IMG/VR virus record: IMGVR_UViG_3300038443_000660
Span: 2,082-66,081 of that record
DNA from: a virus
Taxonomy: Duplodnaviria; Heunggongvirae; Uroviricota; Caudoviricetes
DNA length: 64,000 bases
Reading direction: 5' to 3' (one strand)
Position numbers and translations under genes: made by a program. Shown piece by piece: positions 11,647 through 25,419 of this stretch (its first letter is position 1; the number at the start of each line of letters is the position of its first letter). A model generated the notes under the pieces. The model worked only from the letters and a program-made list of their open reading frames with translations, searched no databases and was not told the origin of the DNA.

Positions 11647-12036
11647 ATGGCATATAATGGTATTCCTTATCTTAGAGGACCGAATGAAGCGATAGATTAT
11701 GACTTAACCATGCGTGAAGAACTTCGTAAATGTGCGAAGTCATACAAATACTTTGTTGAAAATTACATTAAAATTGACGACAATTCTGGTTCTCTTAAGG
11801 TAATTCAGCTTTACGATTATCAAAAAAATCTTCTAAACATCGTCCATAACAATAAAATGACCGTCTGTAAGTTCCCTCGGCAATGCGGTAAGTGCTTGAA
11901 ATATAACACTAATTTGGAATTAAAAAATACCGGGGAAATTCATAAATTAGATGAATCGCTAAATAGAAATGAAACAATAACCATTTCTATTGGAGATTTA
12001 TTTGAACAAGCAAAGGCTGCATATAAGAAAGTGTAA
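11647..12036 (+). CDS. gp17: Terminase large subunit, N-extein (82 aa) fused to split-intein N-fragment
   Basis: ELRKCAKSYKYFVENY...LYDYQK...KFPRQCGK followed by intein block A CLKYNT, then TAA. Confidence 0.92.
   Translation: MAYNGIPYLRGPNEAIDYDLTMREELRKCAKSYKYFVENYIKIDDNSGSLKVIQLYDYQKNLLNIVHNNKMTVCKFPRQCGKCLKYNTNLELKNTGEIHKLDESLNRNETITISIGDLFEQAKAAYKKV
11893..12033 (+). mobile_element. Split intein N-fragment (47 aa)
   Basis: Begins at Cys right after Walker A GK; ends ITISIGDLFEQ, resembling atypical TerL IntN fragments. Confidence 0.88.
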
Positions 12037-12805
12037 GATATGTGACGTAGTGTTTGATGCACATCGAAAATTACAAATTATTTGTACGAATCCAGAATGT
12101 CGTCGTCAATTTAATTTGAATAACATTGCAGACAAAGTGAAACAAAAAAATAACAAGAAATTTGAAAATTCTATAAAGGATGAAGATTATGTTGAATGTT
12201 TATATTGTGGATTAAAGGCGAGAGATTTAACGAAACATATTTTTAATATACATAAAATTCCTGTTTGTGAATATACGGGAAAAACAAGGTGTGACAATTA
12301 TTTAAATAAACAGTCAGAAAGAATAAGGGGAAATAAAAATCCTGCTTACAATCATGGGGGAAAACTTTCACCGTTTTCGAAAAAGTTCATATACGCTGAC
12401 ACGGTAGATTTATCTTCGATTTATAATGTGGGGTCTATTAGTTCTAAAATTGAGCGACAATTTTCAAGAAGATTAAGCAGTGTCCTTCCCAATATACAGA
12501 AACAGTTCTTTTTAAAGATAGATACTGGATTTTTTATATATGACATTAAGTATTGTAATAAAATCATCGAGTTCAATGGTGATTATTGGCATATGAATCC
12601 AAATAAATATCCGGCGAAAACTATTTTTAGACATATTTCTAAAAGTGACGAAGTTATATTGGCAGAAGATGTGTGGAAAAAGGATAAAGTTAAAATACAA
12701 GTTGCGAAAACTAATGGGTATGAAGTTATGATTGTGTGGGAACACGATTATCGTAAAAATAAAGAAGAAACTATAAAGAAATGCTTAAACTTTCTGACAG
12801 CATAG
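12002..12805 (+). mobile_element. Free-standing Vsr-like (PD-(D/E)xK) homing endonuclease with N-terminal Zn-finger motifs
   Basis: CKIC..CTNPEC, CLYC...H...H; C-term YDIKY..KIIEFNGDYWH...D..K...A...GYEV..VWEHD; GGAG-6nt-TTG at 12002; lies in the +1 frame relative to both terL halves. Confidence 0.85.
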
Positions 12806-13149
12806 AACGAAAATTTGTCGAATCTTATCCTTGTGAAGTAGATGTTAAAACTGACACAGGATGGGAAAAATCAGTAATGATTCATAAAACCATACCTTAT
12901 GAAGTGTGGGAACTTCATTTAGAAGATGGAAAAATGTTGGAATGTGCAGATGACCATATCGTTTTTACTGAAAATTTAGAAGAAGTTTTTGTCAAAAATC
13001 TTCATGAAACTGCTTACGTAATGACAGAAGATGGTCCCAAAATGGTAACTTCTGTTAAGAATACAGGCAAATATGAAAATATGTACGATTTAGAATTAAA
13101 TGATGGTTCGTTTCATAGATATTATACAAACGGTATTCTTTCCCATAAT
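12781..13149 (+). mobile_element. Split intein C-fragment (123 aa)
   Basis: Block B CADDHIV, block F MYDLEL, block G YYTNGILSHN followed by Thr+1. Confidence 0.92.
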
Positions 13150-14496
13150 ACAACCTCTATGGCCTGTTATATTGTGTGGTGTATTATTTTTCGTAAAAGA
13201 TACAAGGTTGGTGTTGCTGCCGATAAGGACGAGACGGCGCTGGAAATTATCGACCGTATCAAGACTGCATATGAAGGGCTTCCATACTGGATGCAGCAAG
13301 GCGTCAAAAAATGGGACGCTCACAAGGTTCTGTTGGAAAATGGTTCTAAGGTGGATGCTTCTGCTACTACCAAGAAAACGTTCCGTGGTAAAACATACAA
13401 TTTAGTTCTTCTAGACGAATTTGCGTTCGTGGACCAGAACATCGCTGACCCTTTTTTTACTTCAATTTACCCTACGGTTTCCAAGTCTGACCCAACCATT
13501 CCGATTCCATTACAGACAAAGATGGTTATCATCTCTACTCCTAATGGATTGAACCACTTTCATAAATTATATGATGATGCTGATAAAGGAAAATCTGATT
13601 TCAAGGCTGTTGAAATTAGATGGAATGATGTTCCCGGTCGTGACGATAAATTTAAAGAAGCTACGTTAAGAAATATTGGCGAAGATCGGTGGGAACAAGA
13701 ATACAACGGCAGCTTTCTTGGTTCGTCCACTTCTCTTGTCCCTGCATCTAAACTGAAAACGTTGGTATTTTCAGAACCAAGGGAATCATTACAAGATATC
13801 TCTATCTGGAAACCACCAGTACAAGGACATACTTATTTTATTTCCTGTGACGTATGCCAAGGTAAGGGATTGGACTATCACGCCGCTTCTGTTATTGACA
13901 TTACCGCTGTCCCATATGAAGTGGTAGCCAATTTTCATAACAATACGTTGGATACGATGATGTATCCATCTGTAATATTTGAGTTGGCTAAGAAATATAA
14001 TGAGGCTTTTGTGCTAATCGAGTTGAATAACAATGGTAAGCAAGTTTCGGATATTCTATACTATGAATTAGAATATGAAAATGTTCTATCAACCATGACT
14101 AGAGGTAGAGCCGGTCAAGTTTTGACGGTTGAATCATCGACCGCTAAAGGCGTTACTATGACCAAACCGGTCAAATCGACCGGTTGTTCCAATTTGAAAT
14201 CGTTGATTATGTCTGACCAACTTATCTTGAATGATCACAAATATTTGAAAGAATTGTCAACATTCTCCATTCAAGGTGGACAATACAAGGCCGAAAACGG
14301 TTCTCATGACGATATGGTTATGAGTCTAGTCACATTTTCATGGGCGACTACAGAAACATATTTTGCTGACCTTCTGGATGTCAATATTCGTCAAGAATTG
14401 TTCGAACAAAGAATCAAGCAACTTGAGGAAGATTTGATTCCTTTTGGTGTTCTTGGCAACATGGCGGCGGAAGACGAAGACGAATTGATGTTCTAA
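12781..14496 (+). CDS. gp17: Split-intein C-fragment (123 aa) fused to terminase large subunit C-extein
   Basis: ...ILSHN/TTSMACY...RGKTYNLVLLDEFAF...IISTPNGLNHF...WEQEYNGSF...DVCQGKGLDY...HDDMVMSL. Confidence 0.95.
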   Translation: MLKLSDSIERKFVESYPCEVDVKTDTGWEKSVMIHKTIPYEVWELHLEDGKMLECADDHIVFTENLEEVFVKNLHETAYVMTEDGPKMVTSVKNTGKYENMYDLELNDGSFHRYYTNGILSHNTTSMACYIVWCIIFRKRYKVGVAADKDETALEIIDRIKTAYEGLPYWMQQGVKKWDAHKVLLENGSKVDASATTKKTFRGKTYNLVLLDEFAFVDQNIADPFFTSIYPTVSKSDPTIPIPLQTKMVIISTPNGLNHFHKLYDDADKGKSDFKAVEIRWNDVPGRDDKFKEATLRNIGEDRWEQEYNGSFLGSSTSLVPASKLKTLVFSEPRESLQDISIWKPPVQGHTYFISCDVCQGKGLDYHAASVIDITAVPYEVVANFHNNTLDTMMYPSVIFELAKKYNEAFVLIELNNNGKQVSDILYYELEYENVLSTMTRGRAGQVLTVESSTAKGVTMTKPVKSTGCSNLKSLIMSDQLILNDHKYLKELSTFSIQGGQYKAENGSHDDMVMSLVTFSWATTETYFADLLDVNIRQELFEQRIKQLEEDLIPFGVLGNMAAEDEDELMF

Positions 14497-14675
14497 TTGA
14501 ACCAAGTCACTCTTGCCATCAACACGGATTTATCCGTATCTTTCATGGCTTCCGCTTTCTTTTCCGTAGGACCATGCCAGTGGAACGTGTATTCCATTTT
14601 GTTCTTGTTTAGATAGTAGATAAGATTATCAAGCTTTTCAATATTCTTATTGGTGAAGGTTCGAATCTGGTGCAT
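14493..14675 (-). CDS. Hypothetical protein
   Basis: 60 aa, convergent with terL. Confidence 0.5.
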   Translation of the reverse strand: MHQIRTFTNKNIEKLDNLIYYLNKNKMEYTFHWHGPTEKKAEAMKDTDKSVLMARVTWFN

Positions 14676-15069
14676 TTTGACCTGTATTGATTATAGCTAC
14701 GGTTTTAGTGCCTGCATTATTGTAGGCAGCAAATTTTTCAAAGAATAGTCCCGAAAATGTAGCCATTTGGGCTACAAAGAATGATTTTATCGTTATATCT
14801 TCAAAGGGACAATCATCGTCAACCATTATTCCTATAGCAGTATTATCTTCATCTTGCAATGAAAAAAATGTAAAATCAATGTCTTTTTGAATAGAATTAC
14901 AGTTCTTTATAGTTCCGAGAATACCTTTTTCGATTATAGGAACTACACGGTCATCTTTGCCAGAATATTCGGCAATGATAATTACTCGCTTGTTATTGTA
15001 CTGTTGTAGAGTTTTCATGTATTTGGTATTGCTTTTATTTGTTTTCTTAGGCATATACTTGCACTCCAA
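14647..15069 (-). CDS. Hypothetical protein
   Basis: 140 aa; start uncertain. Confidence 0.55.
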   Translation of the reverse strand: MECKYMPKKTNKSNTKYMKTLQQYNNKRVIIIAEYSGKDDRVVPIIEKGILGTIKNCNSIQKDIDFTFFSLQDEDNTAIGIMVDDDCPFEDITIKSFFVAQMATFSGLFFEKFAAYNNAGTKTVAIINTGQNAPDSNLHQ

Positions 15070-15091
15070 TGCGAGTTGTACTAATTACTAT

Positions 15092-15763
15092 TTATTGGTT
15101 ATATAATTCCTGATATTTGACTCGTAACTTAGCAAAATCTAAGAGTTTATCTTTAGTTGAACCACGAAAAACTTGAAGTTCACCAAATTCGTCCACGATT
15201 AAAATACGATATTTTCTAATGGGTATACCGGTTCGTTCGAACCACATTCGGGCGTATACACATGCCTGCATTCTGTAATTTTCGATATATTTTTCTTTCT
15301 TGGGCTTAGTTGTACCCTTGTAGTCCACAATTTCTAGTTCATCAAAATAACCAATCAAATCCGTTCGTCCAGCAACTTTAAGGGTTGATGACCACAATGG
15401 TGTTTCAATGCAAACCGCATTTTTCATATTTTGTGACAGATGCGCTTTAAGAGGATTGAATAACGACCGGTAGAAGTGAGATGGTGGAATGACTTCCTTA
15501 CCAGCAACGTGGTCCTCCATCATTTGATGGATGATATTACCCCTATCGGCAGCACGTTTCTTGATAAATTCTGCCCTTTCTTCTCCCTCACGCTTTTTCC
15601 ATTTTTCAATAGCTTCCTTGGAATTCAAGGATAATACTGTTGTAACTGATGGAAACTTACCATCGGGAGAAAGATAAAATCGTTGACCATTCTCATGCAC
15701 AGTCTCAATATCAGGTAGAGACTGTGCAGCTTCCAATACATGTTGGAAATCTATAGTAGACAT
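15092..15763 (-). CDS. PD-(D/E)xK exonuclease (Cas4/lambda-exonuclease-like)
   Basis: FPSVTTVL...W...RGNIIH...AGRTDLIG...IVDYKGT...Y..QACVYA. Confidence 0.85.
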   Translation of the reverse strand: MSTIDFQHVLEAAQSLPDIETVHENGQRFYLSPDGKFPSVTTVLSLNSKEAIEKWKKREGEERAEFIKKRAADRGNIIHQMMEDHVAGKEVIPPSHFYRSLFNPLKAHLSQNMKNAVCIETPLWSSTLKVAGRTDLIGYFDELEIVDYKGTTKPKKEKYIENYRMQACVYARMWFERTGIPIRKYRILIVDEFGELQVFRGSTKDKLLDFAKLRVKYQELYNQ

Positions 15764-22364: not shown

Positions 22365-22934
22365 TTAAACAAAAGAAATTTTGACATTATCAGCATCAAC
22401 GTACCGAAACGTGTTTTCTTCATATTGTTTAGGATATACGAAAATGAACGATACATGTTTATGCTTTTTGGCAAACCAGCTTAAGTACTTAATTCTATTG
22501 ACACAATCATTTACCGTCGCTCTGGTTTCTGGACCGTAACCATGTGTTCCATCAAACACATTACCCATATTCATGATAGAATCATCAAATAAGAAGTCAA
22601 ACCCCAAACAAAATAGTTGGCTATATCCATGGTCGATGGCAAGTTCCATTGCCACCATGCCAGCGTTTTGACATCTGCGAACGGGAGAATATTCGGCAGG
22701 CTCAAAACGCTTGTGAAGTGGCGGTACAAAGAAATTATATTGTGGTAATCTATCCGACAAAATTTCTTTAATCATCTTGTCGTCAATAGCTACAAGCCAG
22801 TTTATTTTCTCTGAACGATATATGCCGTTACAACCGTAAAGCGGGCCTTGTTTCCTGAAATAATCTAAATCGAAATGTGTTCTGGAATTTCCATTACCTA
22901 AAATCGTTGCGCTATTCGTCGGAATCGGTGTCAT
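22365..22934 (-). CDS. Conserved Rossmann-like protein (MptE/DUF115/sialyltransferase-like fold)
   Basis: ILGNGNSR...YGCN.IYR...LVAID...AG..A..LA...G...LFCLGFD. Confidence 0.5.
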   Translation of the reverse strand: MTPIPTNSATILGNGNSRTHFDLDYFRKQGPLYGCNGIYRSEKINWLVAIDDKMIKEILSDRLPQYNFFVPPLHKRFEPAEYSPVRRCQNAGMVAMELAIDHGYSQLFCLGFDFLFDDSIMNMGNVFDGTHGYGPETRATVNDCVNRIKYLSWFAKKHKHVSFIFVYPKQYEENTFRYVDADNVKISFV

Positions 22935-23076
22935 GATAATTGTCGTCGCCTAGATGATTGATTTGCTCTTGTTTTTGTTTACGTTTCTCACGGATATCAT
23001 TCTTCTTTTTTATATGCAAATCGATGTAATCATCATCTTCGTAATCATCTCTTGAACGCTTAAATGACTTTCCCAT
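22912..23076 (-). CDS. Small charged protein (54 aa, not in ORF track)
   Basis: Hand translation MGKSFKRSRDDYEDDDYIDLHIKKKNDIREKRKQKQEQINHLGDDNYHDTDSDE fills the gap between neighbours. Confidence 0.55.
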   Translation of the reverse strand: MGKSFKRSRDDYEDDDYIDLHIKKKNDIREKRKQKQEQINHLGDDNYHDTDSDE

Positions 23077-23082
23077 TGTAGT

Positions 23083-23733
23083 TTACTTTGTCTTAGGCTT
23101 TCTAGTTTTTTTGGTTTTAACTGGCTTTGATTCATTGATATCGCCAACCGGAGTGACAGGCTTGTTTGTGATATCATCAAGCACTGGTGATTCTTCGCCA
23201 TAATTTCCGAATGTTTCCAATGACAGTTCGAATGTTGTTCCGGTTGGCGCTGATGCGTTTTTTGATTTAGCTACCTCTACCTTTTCAGGAATAGGCTCTC
23301 CCCAATTTGCAACCAAAGCTGGAAATGCTTCTGCAATCAAACTTCTGGTTATAGATTTGAATGGCAGCTTTCTATTATCCTTGATAAAGACAATAAGCTT
23401 AGCATCGTCTTGGTCGATTGTTTCCATGAAGGAAACAAACATTGATTCTCGTTTATTCGCAGGAAGGTTTGAATATGGTCCGGTTGAATTAAAATGTTGA
23501 AACAGGCGGAAATCTTGCCAAACTCTATTTCTGACCAACCGAACATCATCCGTTACAGGCTTGTACGGAGGACAGCCTTCCGGCAATAACCATTTGACAT
23601 TGGAATCAAAGACATATGTCAAAAACAACTGTAGATGTGGACTGTTGTTTTTATGCAGGACTGCAATTTTGTCTGCTTTAGTTTTGGCTGATTCTACTTC
23701 CGTAAATAATTCTGTTAGTGTGGGTAGCGCCAT
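23083..23733 (-). CDS. Conserved T4-like phage protein (DUF6433-like)
   Basis: TKADKIAVL...FDSNVKWLLPEG.PPYKP...KRESMFVSFMETID..DAKL. Confidence 0.7.
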   Translation of the reverse strand: MALPTLTELFTEVESAKTKADKIAVLHKNNSPHLQLFLTYVFDSNVKWLLPEGCPPYKPVTDDVRLVRNRVWQDFRLFQHFNSTGPYSNLPANKRESMFVSFMETIDQDDAKLIVFIKDNRKLPFKSITRSLIAEAFPALVANWGEPIPEKVEVAKSKNASAPTGTTFELSLETFGNYGEESPVLDDITNKPVTPVGDINESKPVKTKKTRKPKTK

Positions 23734-23942
23734 TATGCCAATCTTTCGACTCTAGTTGAACCAAAAACCATATCCATGGTTGGGATGTATATAACTAAAC
23801 CGACCTTCGATAAATCTCTAGTCTTTTCCTTGATTTTATTTGCATATTCTTCACTTTGAACAATACTAGCGTTGGATATTCCAATATAAACTATGTATAG
23901 CTGTATACCGGAGTTAGAGTTGCATGAGCAATTAGTGTTCAT
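23733..23942 (-). CDS. 69-aa portal-clip-like mini-protein, paralog 2
   Basis: Start moved to ATG 23942; YIVYIGISN...FGSTRVER; paralogous to 24372-24581. Confidence 0.65.
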   Translation of the reverse strand: MNTNCSCNSNSGIQLYIVYIGISNASIVQSEEYANKIKEKTRDLSKVGLVIYIPTMDMVFGSTRVERLA

Positions 23943-23958
23943 TTTTAGGTTTCTCTTT

Positions 23959-24375
23959 TTATACTGTGTCGATACAAAGAACATTAATGTTTTTTGCTTG
24001 TGTTTTTTTCTTTAACATATCGAGGGTCACATTCGAATACATGATATTATCACAAATAATCCATTCTACATTTACACCATCGTATTTTCTATTCATGTAA
24101 CTTTGAACAGAAGATGTAAGAATATTTGGTGTAACTAATTTTTCTTTAATGAATTCACTCTGGATTCTTTTTGCGGTGTCTGTGTTATATGTCAGGAACA
24201 ACACAGTACCATTTCTTGCTTTTTCGGTAGCAAAAGATTTCAGAAATGTAGTTACTCCAATTTGTCTAGGTAATTTATATGACCAAAAGGTTTGACCATA
24301 ATTTTCTTTTTCCCAAATAATCTTGTTTTGGATAGCAGAAAAAATATCTACTACTCTATCTTTTACAACTATCAT
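23959..24375 (-). CDS. Stand-alone terminase-ATPase-like domain with degenerate Walker A and B
   Basis: KLPRQIGVTT vs this phage's TerL KFPRQCGKTT; YDGVNVEWIICDN vs FRGKTYNLVLLDE; VLCIDT vs MVIIST. Confidence 0.72.
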   Translation of the reverse strand: MIVVKDRVVDIFSAIQNKIIWEKENYGQTFWSYKLPRQIGVTTFLKSFATEKARNGTVLFLTYNTDTAKRIQSEFIKEKLVTPNILTSSVQSYMNRKYDGVNVEWIICDNIMYSNVTLDMLKKKTQAKNINVLCIDTV

Positions 24376-24581
24376 ATTCTTTCAATCCTTACCGCACCGA
24401 AATCTAATCCGGCAGTTGAAACAAAAGTCACATTGTTATCTTTGGTGAAATCTGTTAATTCAGTTTTTACTTCATTTTTTAGTGCTTCTCTAGCATCCCT
24501 ACCATGTGTATTACCAACACCTATATACACAATATATTTTGGTATTTCATAAGTGGCAGTGCAATTACAATCAGAATTCAT
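24372..24581 (-). CDS. 69-aa portal-clip-like mini-protein, paralog 1
   Basis: KYIVYIGVGN...A.E.L...FGAVRIERI; resembles the gp20 clip segment (YIDVGN-type motif plus helix). Confidence 0.65.
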   Translation of the reverse strand: MNSDCNCTATYEIPKYIVYIGVGNTHGRDAREALKNEVKTELTDFTKDNNVTFVSTAGLDFGAVRIERI

Positions 24582-25419
24582 TTATATCTTCCATTAGGTT
24601 TCTAAGGCTGTTGTCCATGAAATATTTCATTAATTTCATGCCACGTTTGCCGGTTACTTGTTTGTTTTTGAATGCATTATGAATGTTTTCAGCAATATCA
24701 TCAGGAATTTTGAATAGAGAAATCAAACGTTCATTTCTGTAATAATTCTCTAGGATTTCGTCCTGAAACACATGTTCAGGAACGGAAATAGACCATTCTC
24801 TGACTTTAGCTTCTGTCAATCTTTTTTGTCTCTTGCCGGATACAACAAAAGTATCATCGTCCGATAAGACGTTAGGAATACCATCCGACTGATCGCCACG
24901 TAAAATATGTTCAATCAAGAATGTATCTGGATTATCGCACTTGACTATTGACGACATGTTGGGTGAGTACATCGCAACACCGGGAATTTTTTGGAGTTGC
25001 TTGAAATCCTTGTCGTTCGACACAATCATGTGTGGTCCCGGTTCACGAATAGCGATAACGCCAATGATATCATCAGCTTCTACATTATCGACTTTTATAA
25101 CCTTATATGGAAAGTTAAGTTCAATCTCTACTTGAATGGTATCGATAATTTCAAAGAGACTGGACCAATCAAGCGTTGATTCCTTCCTCGCCGCCTTGCG
25201 AGACGCCTTGTAATAAGGAAAAATGTCTTTGCGCCAATATTTCTTGGAATCGACACACAGAATAATTTCGCCGTATTCAGAATAGAATTTCTTGCGGACT
25301 GAACGGATGATATTCAGTATTAAATGGCGGGCGTAATTTTTATCAATGGACACATTCTTGGTTGAAGCCAGCACACACGATGCCACGGCAACAGCCGAAT
25401 AATCTACTAGGATAGCCAT
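24571..25419 (-). CDS. rnh: T4-type RNase H / 5'-3' exonuclease
   Basis: ILVDYS...WRKDIFPYYKA.RK...EADDIIG...IVSNDKDFKQLQ...ILRGD.SDGIPN. Confidence 0.95.
   Translation of the reverse strand: MAILVDYSAVAVASCVLASTKNVSIDKNYARHLILNIIRSVRKKFYSEYGEIILCVDSKKYWRKDIFPYYKASRKAARKESTLDWSSLFEIIDTIQVEIELNFPYKVIKVDNVEADDIIGVIAIREPGPHMIVSNDKDFKQLQKIPGVAMYSPNMSSIVKCDNPDTFLIEHILRGDQSDGIPNVLSDDDTFVVSGKRQKRLTEAKVREWSISVPEHVFQDEILENYYRNERLISLFKIPDDIAENIHNAFKNKQVTGKRGMKLMKYFMDNSLRNLMEDINEF

What the first reader, a model, noticed from the sequence alone, without database searches (positions are those of the whole stretch)
23733..24581. Candidate packaging-motor decoy cassette: dead terminase ATPase between two portal-clip-like mini-proteins
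Seen: three translationally stacked genes right after rnh. The middle 138-aa ORF aligns with this phage's own TerL ATPase at three motifs (KLPRQIGVTT vs KFPRQCGKTT; DGVNVEWIICDN vs RGKTYNLVLLDE; VLCIDT vs MVIIST). Its Walker A Lys is Val, its catalytic Glu is Asn, and it has no nuclease domain. Both flanking genes are 69-aa paralogs (MNxxCxC...YIVYIG..N...FG..R.ER) whose core recalls the T4-family gp20 portal clip segment (YIDVGN-type motif, helix, two strands). Known: Avs (STAND) defences are triggered by terminase ATPase and portal folds. Inference: the cassette encodes structural decoys of both triggers that titrate Avs-type sensors, or dominant-negative inhibitors of packaging by competing phages. 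I do not know of a described system with this architecture.
Basis: partly seen in the sequence, partly recalled or inferred. Interest (0 to 1): 0.88.

Follow-up and report, generated by a model that had tools for sequence, protein, structure and literature searches.

The report
Portal-clip-like mini-genes flanking a dead ATPase
In a 242-kb soil phage, two small sister genes that resemble the tip of the portal "clip", where the DNA-packaging motor docks, flank a gene for a motor-like ATPase domain without its catalytic residues; they look like mimics of packaging parts, but what they bind is untested.

Summary
The three stacked minus-strand genes after rnh are real. The two 69-aa proteins are paralogs (35% identity, E 3e-15).

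The portal-clip idea held up better than expected:
- The best local alignment of 69A and 69B covers the clip-tip G(N/Q)(L/M)P motif in 17 and 19 of 21 T4-type portals (shuffles average about 1).
- Profile against portal profile gives P 0.002 (0 of 400 shuffles).
- A single-copy homolog in a relative hits only the portal gene in a six-frame scan of phage ORM_20.
- Atlas shape searches rank portals first or fourth.
- The matched segment is T4 gp20 283-309, which overlaps a peptide known to bind gp17 and block packaging.

The cassette layout is unique to this phage. No test addresses Avs decoy or packaging inhibition. This scan has noted free-standing clip copies in other phages.

The parts
24372..24581 (-). 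69A: a 69-aa clip-like mini-protein. Its start overlaps the rnh stop by 11 nt. N-terminal MNSDCNC, then strand YIVYIG, tip VGN, a 19-residue helix and two strands.
   Evidence: ORF. Paralog of 69B, E 3e-15. AF2 model is beta-alpha-beta-beta with pLDDT 68.6. The Atlas shape search ranks a T4-like portal cluster first: TM 0.60, 57 residues aligned, rmsd 3.1. Its best local alignment covers the clip tip in 17 of 21 portals; 2 of 200 shuffles do as well.
23959..24375 (-). 138-aa pseudo-ATPase: a single RecA-like (ASCE) P-loop domain with LPRQIGVTT (Lys replaced by Val), WIICDN (Glu replaced by Asn) and a C-terminal CIDTV.
23733..23942 (-). 69B: the second 69-aa clip-like mini-protein. The true start is the ATG at 23942; the longer 83-aa frame is not supported. 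Its stop overlaps the DUF6433 start by 1 nt.
   Evidence: Both paralogs begin MN(S/T)(D/N)C(N/S)C. The Atlas's own model of 69B matches a Portal_T4 fragment cluster at TM 0.65. Its best local alignment covers the clip tip in 19 of 21 portals; 0 of 200 shuffles do as well.
24571..25419 (-). rnh (T4-type RNase H / 5'-3' exonuclease), the upstream anchor of the locus.
   Evidence: Pfam 5_3_exonuc_N at 4.5e-16 and RNaseH_C at 3.9e-12. It is 67% identical to the ortholog in relative G002.
23083..23733 (-). DUF6433 protein, the downstream anchor of the locus.
   Evidence: Pfam DUF6433 at 5.6e-23. It is 52% identical to the G002 ortholog, which in G002 directly follows the single 61-aa clip-like gene.
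14499..15763 (-). A cluster of PD-(D/E)XK nuclease, p115-like and p76-like genes, convergent on the TerL 3' end. In three relatives the pseudo-ATPase family gene sits in this cluster; here it is missing from it.
   Evidence: tblastn of the G002 cluster against the phage's own genome finds the nuclease (66% identity), p115 (48%) and p76 (42%) here. The pseudo-ATPase matches only at the rnh locus, at 28% identity. Layout in relatives.
11647..14496 (+). The phage's own TerL, used as the comparison partner. It is fractured inside Walker A (PRQCGK | TT) by a split intein with a free-standing endonuclease gene between the two pieces.
   Evidence: Translations. hhalign of the pseudo-ATPase family against spliced TerL and against a TerL N-domain alignment.

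Best explanation
This is a lineage-specific early-region arrangement, not a conserved system. An ancestral single small gene between rnh and DUF6433 is present here as two diverged copies (69A, 69B). A gene for a non-catalytic P-loop protein lies between them; in the closest relatives that gene sits next to TerL.

The small proteins are free-standing, fast-evolving relatives or mimics of the portal clip domain (strand, G-N/Q tip, helix, strand, strand). They keep the tip-and-helix segment that docks the large terminase in T4. Inferred: they most likely act without catalysis, as soluble competitors or adaptors at a surface that normally recognises the clip. Candidates are the terminase docking subdomain, the neck protein or a host sensor.

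The 138-aa protein keeps the phosphate-loop Arg and Gly, the Thr/Ser pair, the Walker B Asp and a C-terminal Asp, but has lost the Lys and the Glu. Inferred: it binds a ligand or a partner ATPase rather than hydrolysing ATP. Its link to the small proteins is shown only by position and translational stacking.
For: Genes and paralogy.

Ancestral state:
- Relative G002 (TerL 72% identical, rnh 67%, DUF6433 52%) has one 61-aa gene in the same slot.
- That gene is homologous to 69A/69B: hhalign P 6.6e-5 over 56 columns.

Clip likeness:
- The 69A+69B profile against a 21-portal alignment scores 26.7, P 0.0019, with 0 of 400 column shuffles as high. The reversed portal, TerL alignments and 530 ORFs of the phage's own genome all score 20 or less.
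- The best Smith-Waterman alignment covers the G(N/Q)(L/M)P tip in 17, 19 and 21 of 21 portals for 69A, 69B and the G002 homolog. Shuffles average about 1 of 21.
- In a six-frame scan of the ORM_20 genome, the G002 homolog's only hit is the portal gene, E 0.005. Smith-Waterman score 63 against 30.1 +/- 4.7 for shuffles, 0 of 2000 as high.
- Atlas shape searches place portal clusters at rank 1 (TM 0.60) and rank 8 for 69A, and at rank 4 (TM 0.65) for 69B.
- The matched segment, own portal 273-299, equals T4 gp20 283-309. This lies in the clip (279-358) and includes the tip residues N291, M292, R295 and K296 that contact gp17. It overlaps peptide 288-311, which binds gp17 and inhibits packaging (PMC4493910).

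Pseudo-ATPase: fold and family-wide loss of Lys and Glu with invariant P36, R37, G40, D109, I135 and D136.
Against: - The 69A model has only moderate confidence (pLDDT 68.6).
- There is no Pfam Portal_T4 hit.
- The last two strands show no similarity to the clip.
- 69A and 69B are not similar to their own phage's portal (P 0.96 and 0.78; hhalign E 0.38).
The G002/ORM_20 result and the shape searches are independent of that choice.
- The TerL affinity of the 138-aa protein is weak. The family profile's best PDB sequence matches are KtrA, a Rossmann-type protein (E 0.0014), and FtsY/SRP GTPases (E 0.003); no terminase appears. A full-length TerL alignment scores only 15.2.
- No binding partner is shown.
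Confidence: 0.42

Rival explanations
1. These are ordinary, unrelated early accessory genes. The 138-aa protein is a generic degenerate helicase-like or P-loop domain working in DNA metabolism. The 69-aa proteins are a small alpha/beta family of unknown role. The TerL and portal resemblances are short-motif coincidences, and adjacency reflects shuffling in a hyperplastic region.
For: - Structure searches put SF2 helicases, RadA/RecA and thymidine kinase ahead of terminases.
- Pfam and PDB profile hits are scattered over DnaA, AAA_14, SRP54/FtsY and ParA.
- The family's neighbours elsewhere are DNA-metabolism genes: a PD-(D/E)XK nuclease, a likely dCTP-deaminase/dUTPase-type gene (read by eye from the partial translation, not scanned), an SF2 helicase and RNase H.
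- The cassette is not conserved.
Against: All three small proteins independently align best to the clip tip in 17 to 21 of 21 portals. The unbiased ORM_20 genome scan hit only the portal. Portal clusters head two separate shape searches. TerL is the best of 530 ORFs of the phage's own genome for the pseudo-ATPase profile, and the family gene abuts TerL in three relatives.
Confidence: 0.33
2. One reading: the cassette supplies structural decoys of both Avs triggers, the terminase ATPase and the portal. They bind and titrate Avs-type STAND sensors without activating them.
For: Clip-tip likeness of 69A/69B. TerL-like motif order in a dead ATPase. Fast divergence of the small genes next to well-conserved neighbours fits an arms race. 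That Avs sensors recognise terminase and portal is established knowledge, cited from memory and not tested here.
Against: - No evidence on any sensor, and no PADLOC hit.
- The 138-aa protein lacks the nuclease domain and subdomain II, so it presents only part of the terminase surface.
- From general knowledge of STAND activation, ligand binding is what triggers Avs oligomerisation, so a binder would be expected to activate rather than to silence.
- The two parts are not linked in relatives.
Confidence: 0.07
3. The genes modulate packaging. The clip-like proteins occupy the portal-docking site of TerL, either of competing T4-like phages (exclusion at the packaging step) or of the phage's own split-intein TerL until proheads are ready. 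The pseudo-ATPase joins or caps a terminase ring as a dead subunit.
For: The free gp20 peptide 288-311 binds gp17 and inhibits packaging (PMC4493910), and the matched segment overlaps it. The family gene is TerL's immediate convergent neighbour in three relatives. The family consensus shares PRQxG, an RG before Walker B and hhhIDTxxG with TerL.
Against: The small proteins match foreign or consensus clips better than their own phage's clip, which does not fit self-regulation. The window's pseudo-ATPase has lost the Arg of the RG motif. No interaction evidence exists.
Confidence: 0.1

Closest known systems
Clip domain of T4-type portal proteins (T4 gp20 residues 279-358; Pfam PF07230) and the inhibitory gp20 peptide 288-311
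   Same: Same strand-tip-helix-strand-strand order. The hxhxxG(N/Q) tip followed by a helix of 18-19 residues aligns with gp20 283-309. This is the segment that contacts gp17, and as a free peptide it blocks packaging (PMC4493910).
   Different: Free-standing 61-69 aa proteins, not part of a 500-560 aa dodecameric portal. No Pfam hit. The last two strands are not detectably similar. An extra N-terminal CxC is present. They are expressed from the early region beside rnh. They are closer to foreign or consensus clips than to the resident portal.
N-terminal ATPase subdomain I of T4-type large terminase (gp17; Pfam PF03237 Terminase_6N)
   Different: Walker A Lys and catalytic Glu are absent in every family member. 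There is no subdomain II and no nuclease domain. No significant sequence score. Helicases score higher by fold.
RecA1 domain of SF2 helicases (NS3/DEAH, ResIII/DEAD)
   Different: A single domain without the second RecA domain. Motifs I and II are degenerate. Pfam ResIII reaches only E 0.14, in one member.
phrog_2586 (phage protein family of unknown function)
   Same: 7 of 10 family members hit it weakly, best E 1.3e-4, and the length is similar (166-position profile).
   Different: No function is annotated and the scores are marginal, so it names a neighbourhood and not a mechanism.
Free-standing portal-clip copies noted by this scan in other large phages (unchecked AI notes)
   Same: Small non-structural genes that resemble the clip tip, with the same proposed mimicry.
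   Different: Those are in other genomes, often fused to other domains or clearly copied from the resident portal. Here there are two paralogs flanking a pseudo-ATPase, with no likeness to the resident portal. No relatedness to those genes was tested.

Membership tests
T4-type terminase large subunit ATPase (PF03237 Terminase_6N) | Scores above the Pfam gathering threshold | tested here: not met
   No hit for the window protein. One family member reaches E 0.086, and another hits GpA_ATPase at E 0.049.
T4-type terminase large subunit ATPase (PF03237 Terminase_6N) | Walker A Lys and catalytic Glu after the Walker B Asp | tested here: not met
   Val43... in fact the Lys position is V, T or A, and the Glu position is N, T or S, in all 10 members.
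T4-type terminase large subunit ATPase (PF03237 Terminase_6N) | ASCE core fold superposable on gp17 subdomain I | tested here: met
T4-type terminase large subunit ATPase (PF03237 Terminase_6N) | Subdomain II (portal docking) and C-terminal nuclease domain | tested here: not met
   The protein ends at the C-motif strand, residue 138.
SF2 helicase (ResIII/DEAD) | Two RecA-like domains with intact motifs I and II | tested here: not met
Portal clip domain (T4 gp20 279-358, PF07230) | Strand - G(N/Q) tip - helix sequence signature | tested here: met
   hhalign P 0.0019, with 0 of 400 shuffles as high and all controls at 20 or less. The tip is covered in 17 and 19 of 21 portals. Numbering.
Portal clip domain (T4 gp20 279-358, PF07230) | Beta-alpha-beta-beta topology superposable on a portal clip | tested here: inconclusive
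   The AF2 topology fits, and Atlas portal clusters give TM 0.56-0.65. No solved portal is listed among the best PDB matches, and all Z are 5 or less.
Portal clip domain (T4 gp20 279-358, PF07230) | Similarity across the two C-terminal clip strands, and a Pfam hit | tested here: not met
   The C-terminal halves against portal 300-345 score 6.6 against a null of 7.9 +/- 2.0. No Pfam family at E up to 1.
Avs-type sensor decoy / anti-defence protein | Binds or blocks a defence sensor | not testable with these tools
   PADLOC gave no hit, but it models defence proteins rather than anti-defence ones. No sensor from the host is known.
Thioredoxin-like / KaiB / DinI small alpha-beta proteins | Clear fold match and, for thioredoxins, CxxC at the N-terminus of helix 1 | tested here: not met

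The most novel reading that the evidence does not exclude
The phage makes, early in infection, soluble mimics of the two halves of the packaging interface: two clip-tip proteins and a dead terminase-like ATPase core. They act together as decoys or competitive inhibitors, either blunting host sensors that read portal and terminase shapes, or blocking the terminase-portal docking of rival phages. Free-standing clip copies would then be a recurrent, undescribed class of phage mimic proteins.
Probability: 0.15. Interest if true: 0.85.

Novelty: new variant of a known kind. Interest (0 to 1): 0.64.

Why it matters
The portal clip tip is the docking point for the packaging motor and the neck. A free peptide of this segment is already known to bind T4 terminase and stop packaging.

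Natural, free-standing, fast-evolving clip-like proteins would be an undescribed way for phages to interfere with packaging or with immune sensing. That interference could target their own packaging, a rival's packaging, or the host's sensors. A family-wide catalytically dead P-loop domain beside them adds a second candidate mimic.

The proteins are small, so the idea can be tested directly at the bench. If it fails, the locus is still a clear example of gene shuffling and pseudoenzyme retention in a T4-like soil phage.

Tried and rejected
- Complex prediction of the 138-aa protein with 69B and 69A returned 'no answer' (score 0.03). It is not evidence either way.
- Sequencing runs: only soil and rhizosphere DNA holders were found and no RNA holder is listed. 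Laying contigs of four runs gave fragmentary cover and showed nothing about variants.
- Word-index protein searches found only the proteins themselves. Pattern scans of viral contigs for the 138-aa protein, the 69-aa pair and family alignments found nothing, or only the G002 group.
- blastn of the locus against the phage collection gave no match.
- PADLOC gave no hit.
- No solved portal appeared among the 50 listed PDB rows for the 69A model by Foldseek, VIA wide or VIA second look. No terminase appeared among Foldseek's 50 PDB rows for the 138-aa model.
- Own-portal comparisons were negative.
- I first assigned the matched portal segment to the wing/stem junction from memory. Alignment to T4 gp20 showed it lies in the clip, and I withdrew the first assignment.
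- DNA repeats, promoters and terminators around the cassette showed nothing above chance, so no sign of a mobile-element insertion was found.
- Literature searches for Avs decoys, terminase-like pseudoenzymes and inactive P-loop anti-defence proteins found nothing relevant.

Full report
**The locus.** The window comes from a 242,456-bp virus contig with direct terminal repeats. CheckV rates it complete. It was recovered from soil and rhizosphere metagenomes and has 38% GC.

All genes of the locus are on the minus strand:
- rnh, 24571-25419. Pfam 5_3_exonuc_N plus RNaseH_C.
- 69A, 24372-24581. Overlaps the rnh stop by 11 nt.
- The 138-aa gene, 23959-24375. ATGA overlap with 69A.
- 69B, 23733-23942. 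Preceded by a 16-nt gap.
- A DUF6433 gene, 23083-23733. TAATG overlap with 69B.

Independent gene callers give the same genes on 14 contigs from several samples. The "translationally stacked" description is correct.

**The 69-aa pair.** 69A and 69B are paralogs: 24 of 69 residues identical, E 3e-15. They share MNxxCxC, YIVYIG, N, and FG..R.ER. Neither has a Pfam, PHROG or PADLOC assignment. AlphaFold2 on the two-sequence alignment gives strand 16-21, helix 28-46, strand 51-56 and strand 64-68, at moderate confidence (pLDDT 68.6).

**The 138-aa protein.**
- AlphaFold2 gives a confident single alpha/beta domain (pLDDT 83.7, pTM 0.81).
- An exhaustive phmmer search of 1.84 billion representatives found five relatives of 135-146 aa (E 1e-5 to 5e-4). 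A profile search added two more.
- Relatives of this phage and Ochrobactrum phage ORM_20 carry further members.
- In all ten aligned members the Walker A Lys position is V, T or A, and the residue after the Walker B Asp is N, T or S. P36, R37, G40, D109, I135 and D136 are invariant.

This is therefore an old, selected, catalytically degenerate P-loop family and not a recent pseudogene. The conserved pocket residues suggest that it still binds something.

**Is it terminase-like?** Fold searches say it is a generic ASCE domain.
- Foldseek against the PDB lists Ski2, RadD, RadA/RecA and thymidine kinase.
- The Atlas and AFDB clusters agree with this picture.
- Sequence profiles scatter over DnaA, AAA_14, SRP54/FtsY and ParA, with two marginal terminase hits.

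Some evidence points the other way.
- The family profile's best non-self match among 530 ORFs of the phage's own genome is spliced TerL (score 28.6, P 0.0019). The TerL N-terminal piece ranks fourth.
- Against a 52-sequence TerL N-domain alignment, all motifs align in register: W/Y-Q, PRQxG, RG...hhhhD, hhh(S/D)T. The score is P 0.012, and 2 of 400 column shuffles reach it.
- The reversed alignment scores 18.7 and a full-length TerL alignment only 15.2.
- In three relatives the family gene is TerL's immediate convergent neighbour.

I rate TerL descent at roughly one in three. The protein lacks gp17 subdomain II, where the clip-contacting residues lie (PMC4493910), and it lacks the nuclease domain.

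**Is the pair clip-like?** The first tests were negative.
- There is no similarity to the phage's own portal (hhalign E 0.38; shuffle P 0.96 and 0.78; rank 145 by hmmsearch).

Three independent lines then pointed to the clip.
1. Synteny. In relative G002 (256 kb; TerL 72%, rnh 67% and DUF6433 52% identical) a single 61-aa gene sits between rnh and DUF6433. It is homologous to the pair (hhalign P 6.6e-5 over 56 columns). I ran a six-frame scan of the ORM_20 genome with this protein to look for more family members. Its only hit fell inside the annotated portal gene, E 0.005. The Smith-Waterman score is 63 against 30.1 +/- 4.7 for 2000 shuffles.
2. Profile and alignment statistics. I built an alignment of 21 T4-type portals.
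   - The 69A+69B profile matches it at own-portal residues 273-299 with score 26.7 and P 0.0019. None of 400 column shuffles reaches that score.
   - The reversed portal (13.8), the TerL alignments (12-15) and all 530 ORFs of the phage's own genome (20.0 or less) score lower.
   - The best local alignment of 69A, 69B and the G002 protein covers the G(N/Q)(L/M)P tip in 17, 19 and 21 of 21 portals. Shuffled sequences average about 1 of 21, and 2, 0 and 0 of 200 shuffles reach the observed count.
3. Shape searches. The Atlas ranks a T4-like portal cluster first for my 69A model (TM 0.60, 57 residues, rmsd 3.1) and a Phage_portal cluster eighth. The Atlas's own 69B model matches a Portal_T4 fragment cluster at TM 0.65. 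BFVD lists a portal at rank 5, not significantly.

**Where on the portal.** Alignment of this phage's portal to T4 gp20 gives T4 numbering = own + 10. The matched segment is therefore gp20 283-309. According to the T4 portal structure paper (PMC4493910):
- The clip is residues 279-358 and consists of three strands and helix alpha6.
- Its tip residues N291, M292, R295 and K296 contact gp17.
- A 24-residue peptide, 288-311, binds gp17 and inhibits packaging.

The strand-helix-strand-strand order of the small proteins fits that composition. The second half of the small proteins shows no sequence similarity to the rest of the clip.

**Architecture and evolution.** The three-gene layout is unique to this phage.
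- The G002 group has one small gene at the rnh locus. Its pseudo-ATPase sits in a cluster of PD-(D/E)XK nuclease, p115, p76 and p80 genes abutting TerL.
- Here the nuclease, p115 and p76 remain next to TerL, but p80 and the pseudo-ATPase are absent from that site. The copy at rnh is only 28% identical to G002's.
- No 69-aa-like neighbours were found at other family members. In L004, L007 and L008 the neighbours were compared by BLAST, and the three G002-group genomes carrying the family gene were scanned with the pair's profile. ORM_20 was scanned only with the G002 61-aa homolog, whose single hit was the portal gene; there the family gene follows an SF2 helicase and precedes a homing endonuclease.
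- The small genes diverge much faster than their neighbours.

**Mechanism.**
- Shown: gene structure, paralogy, family-wide loss of catalytic residues, clip-tip similarity, and non-conservation of the cassette.
- Inferred: the small proteins act as soluble clip surrogates that bind a clip partner, and the pseudo-ATPase binds a ligand or partner without hydrolysis.
- Not shown: any interaction, any link to Avs, or any effect on packaging. The complex prediction gave no verdict.

**Caveats.** The significant stretch is short. The G002/ORM_20 hit and the shape searches do not depend on that selection. One result is odd: the small proteins resemble foreign and consensus clips more than the resident portal.

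**Earlier notes in this scan.** Other agents have noted free-standing portal-clip copies in at least eight other phage genomes. Those notes are unchecked. I did not test any relatedness to them, and they do not raise my score.

Noticed in passing
window 11647-14496 (+); L117 4396-5979; L091 1920-3251: TerL is fractured inside Walker A (PRQCGK | TT) by a split intein, with a free-standing endonuclease ORF (11990-12805) between the pieces. Relative G003 has an intact 527-aa TerL. In G002 the TerL open frame starts just after Walker A, so it appears interrupted at the same site.
   Followed up: partly
window 14499-15763 (-); L091 41-1923; L007 2630-4420: A cluster of PD-(D/E)XK nuclease, p115 and p76 genes is conserved and convergent on TerL. 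In relatives and in an unrelated contig it also carries the pseudo-ATPase family gene. Here that gene and p80 are missing from the cluster.
   Followed up: partly
L093 2352-2537 versus portals (ORM_20 L126 637-2295; G002 L120): The single-copy 61-aa clip-like protein of G002 is much closer to the clip tip of the Ochrobactrum phage ORM_20 portal (Smith-Waterman 63) than to its own phage's portal (37). This is unexpected if it arose by duplication of the resident gene.
   Followed up: partly
window 24561-24581 and 23922-23942 (N-termini of 69A and 69B): Both paralogs begin MNxxCxC. This Cys pair is absent from the single-copy relative. It may be a shared metal or disulfide site if the two proteins pair.
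   Followed up: no
window 22912-23076 (-); L093 3221-3391: A 54-aa, highly charged ORF follows DUF6433 and is conserved in G002. Small basic/acidic ORFs of similar style follow rnh in other T4-like contigs, ahead of what look like sliding-clamp and clamp-loader genes (judged by eye from the translations, not scanned).
   Followed up: no
L124 3162-5941 (Ochrobactrum phage ORM_20): A cultured phage carries a pseudo-ATPase family member (ORM20_00237: FPRQSGATT, LIDN, AIDTI). It lies between an SF2 helicase (ResIII plus Helicase_C_2) and a homing endonuclease, which makes it a tractable system for genetics.
   Followed up: partly
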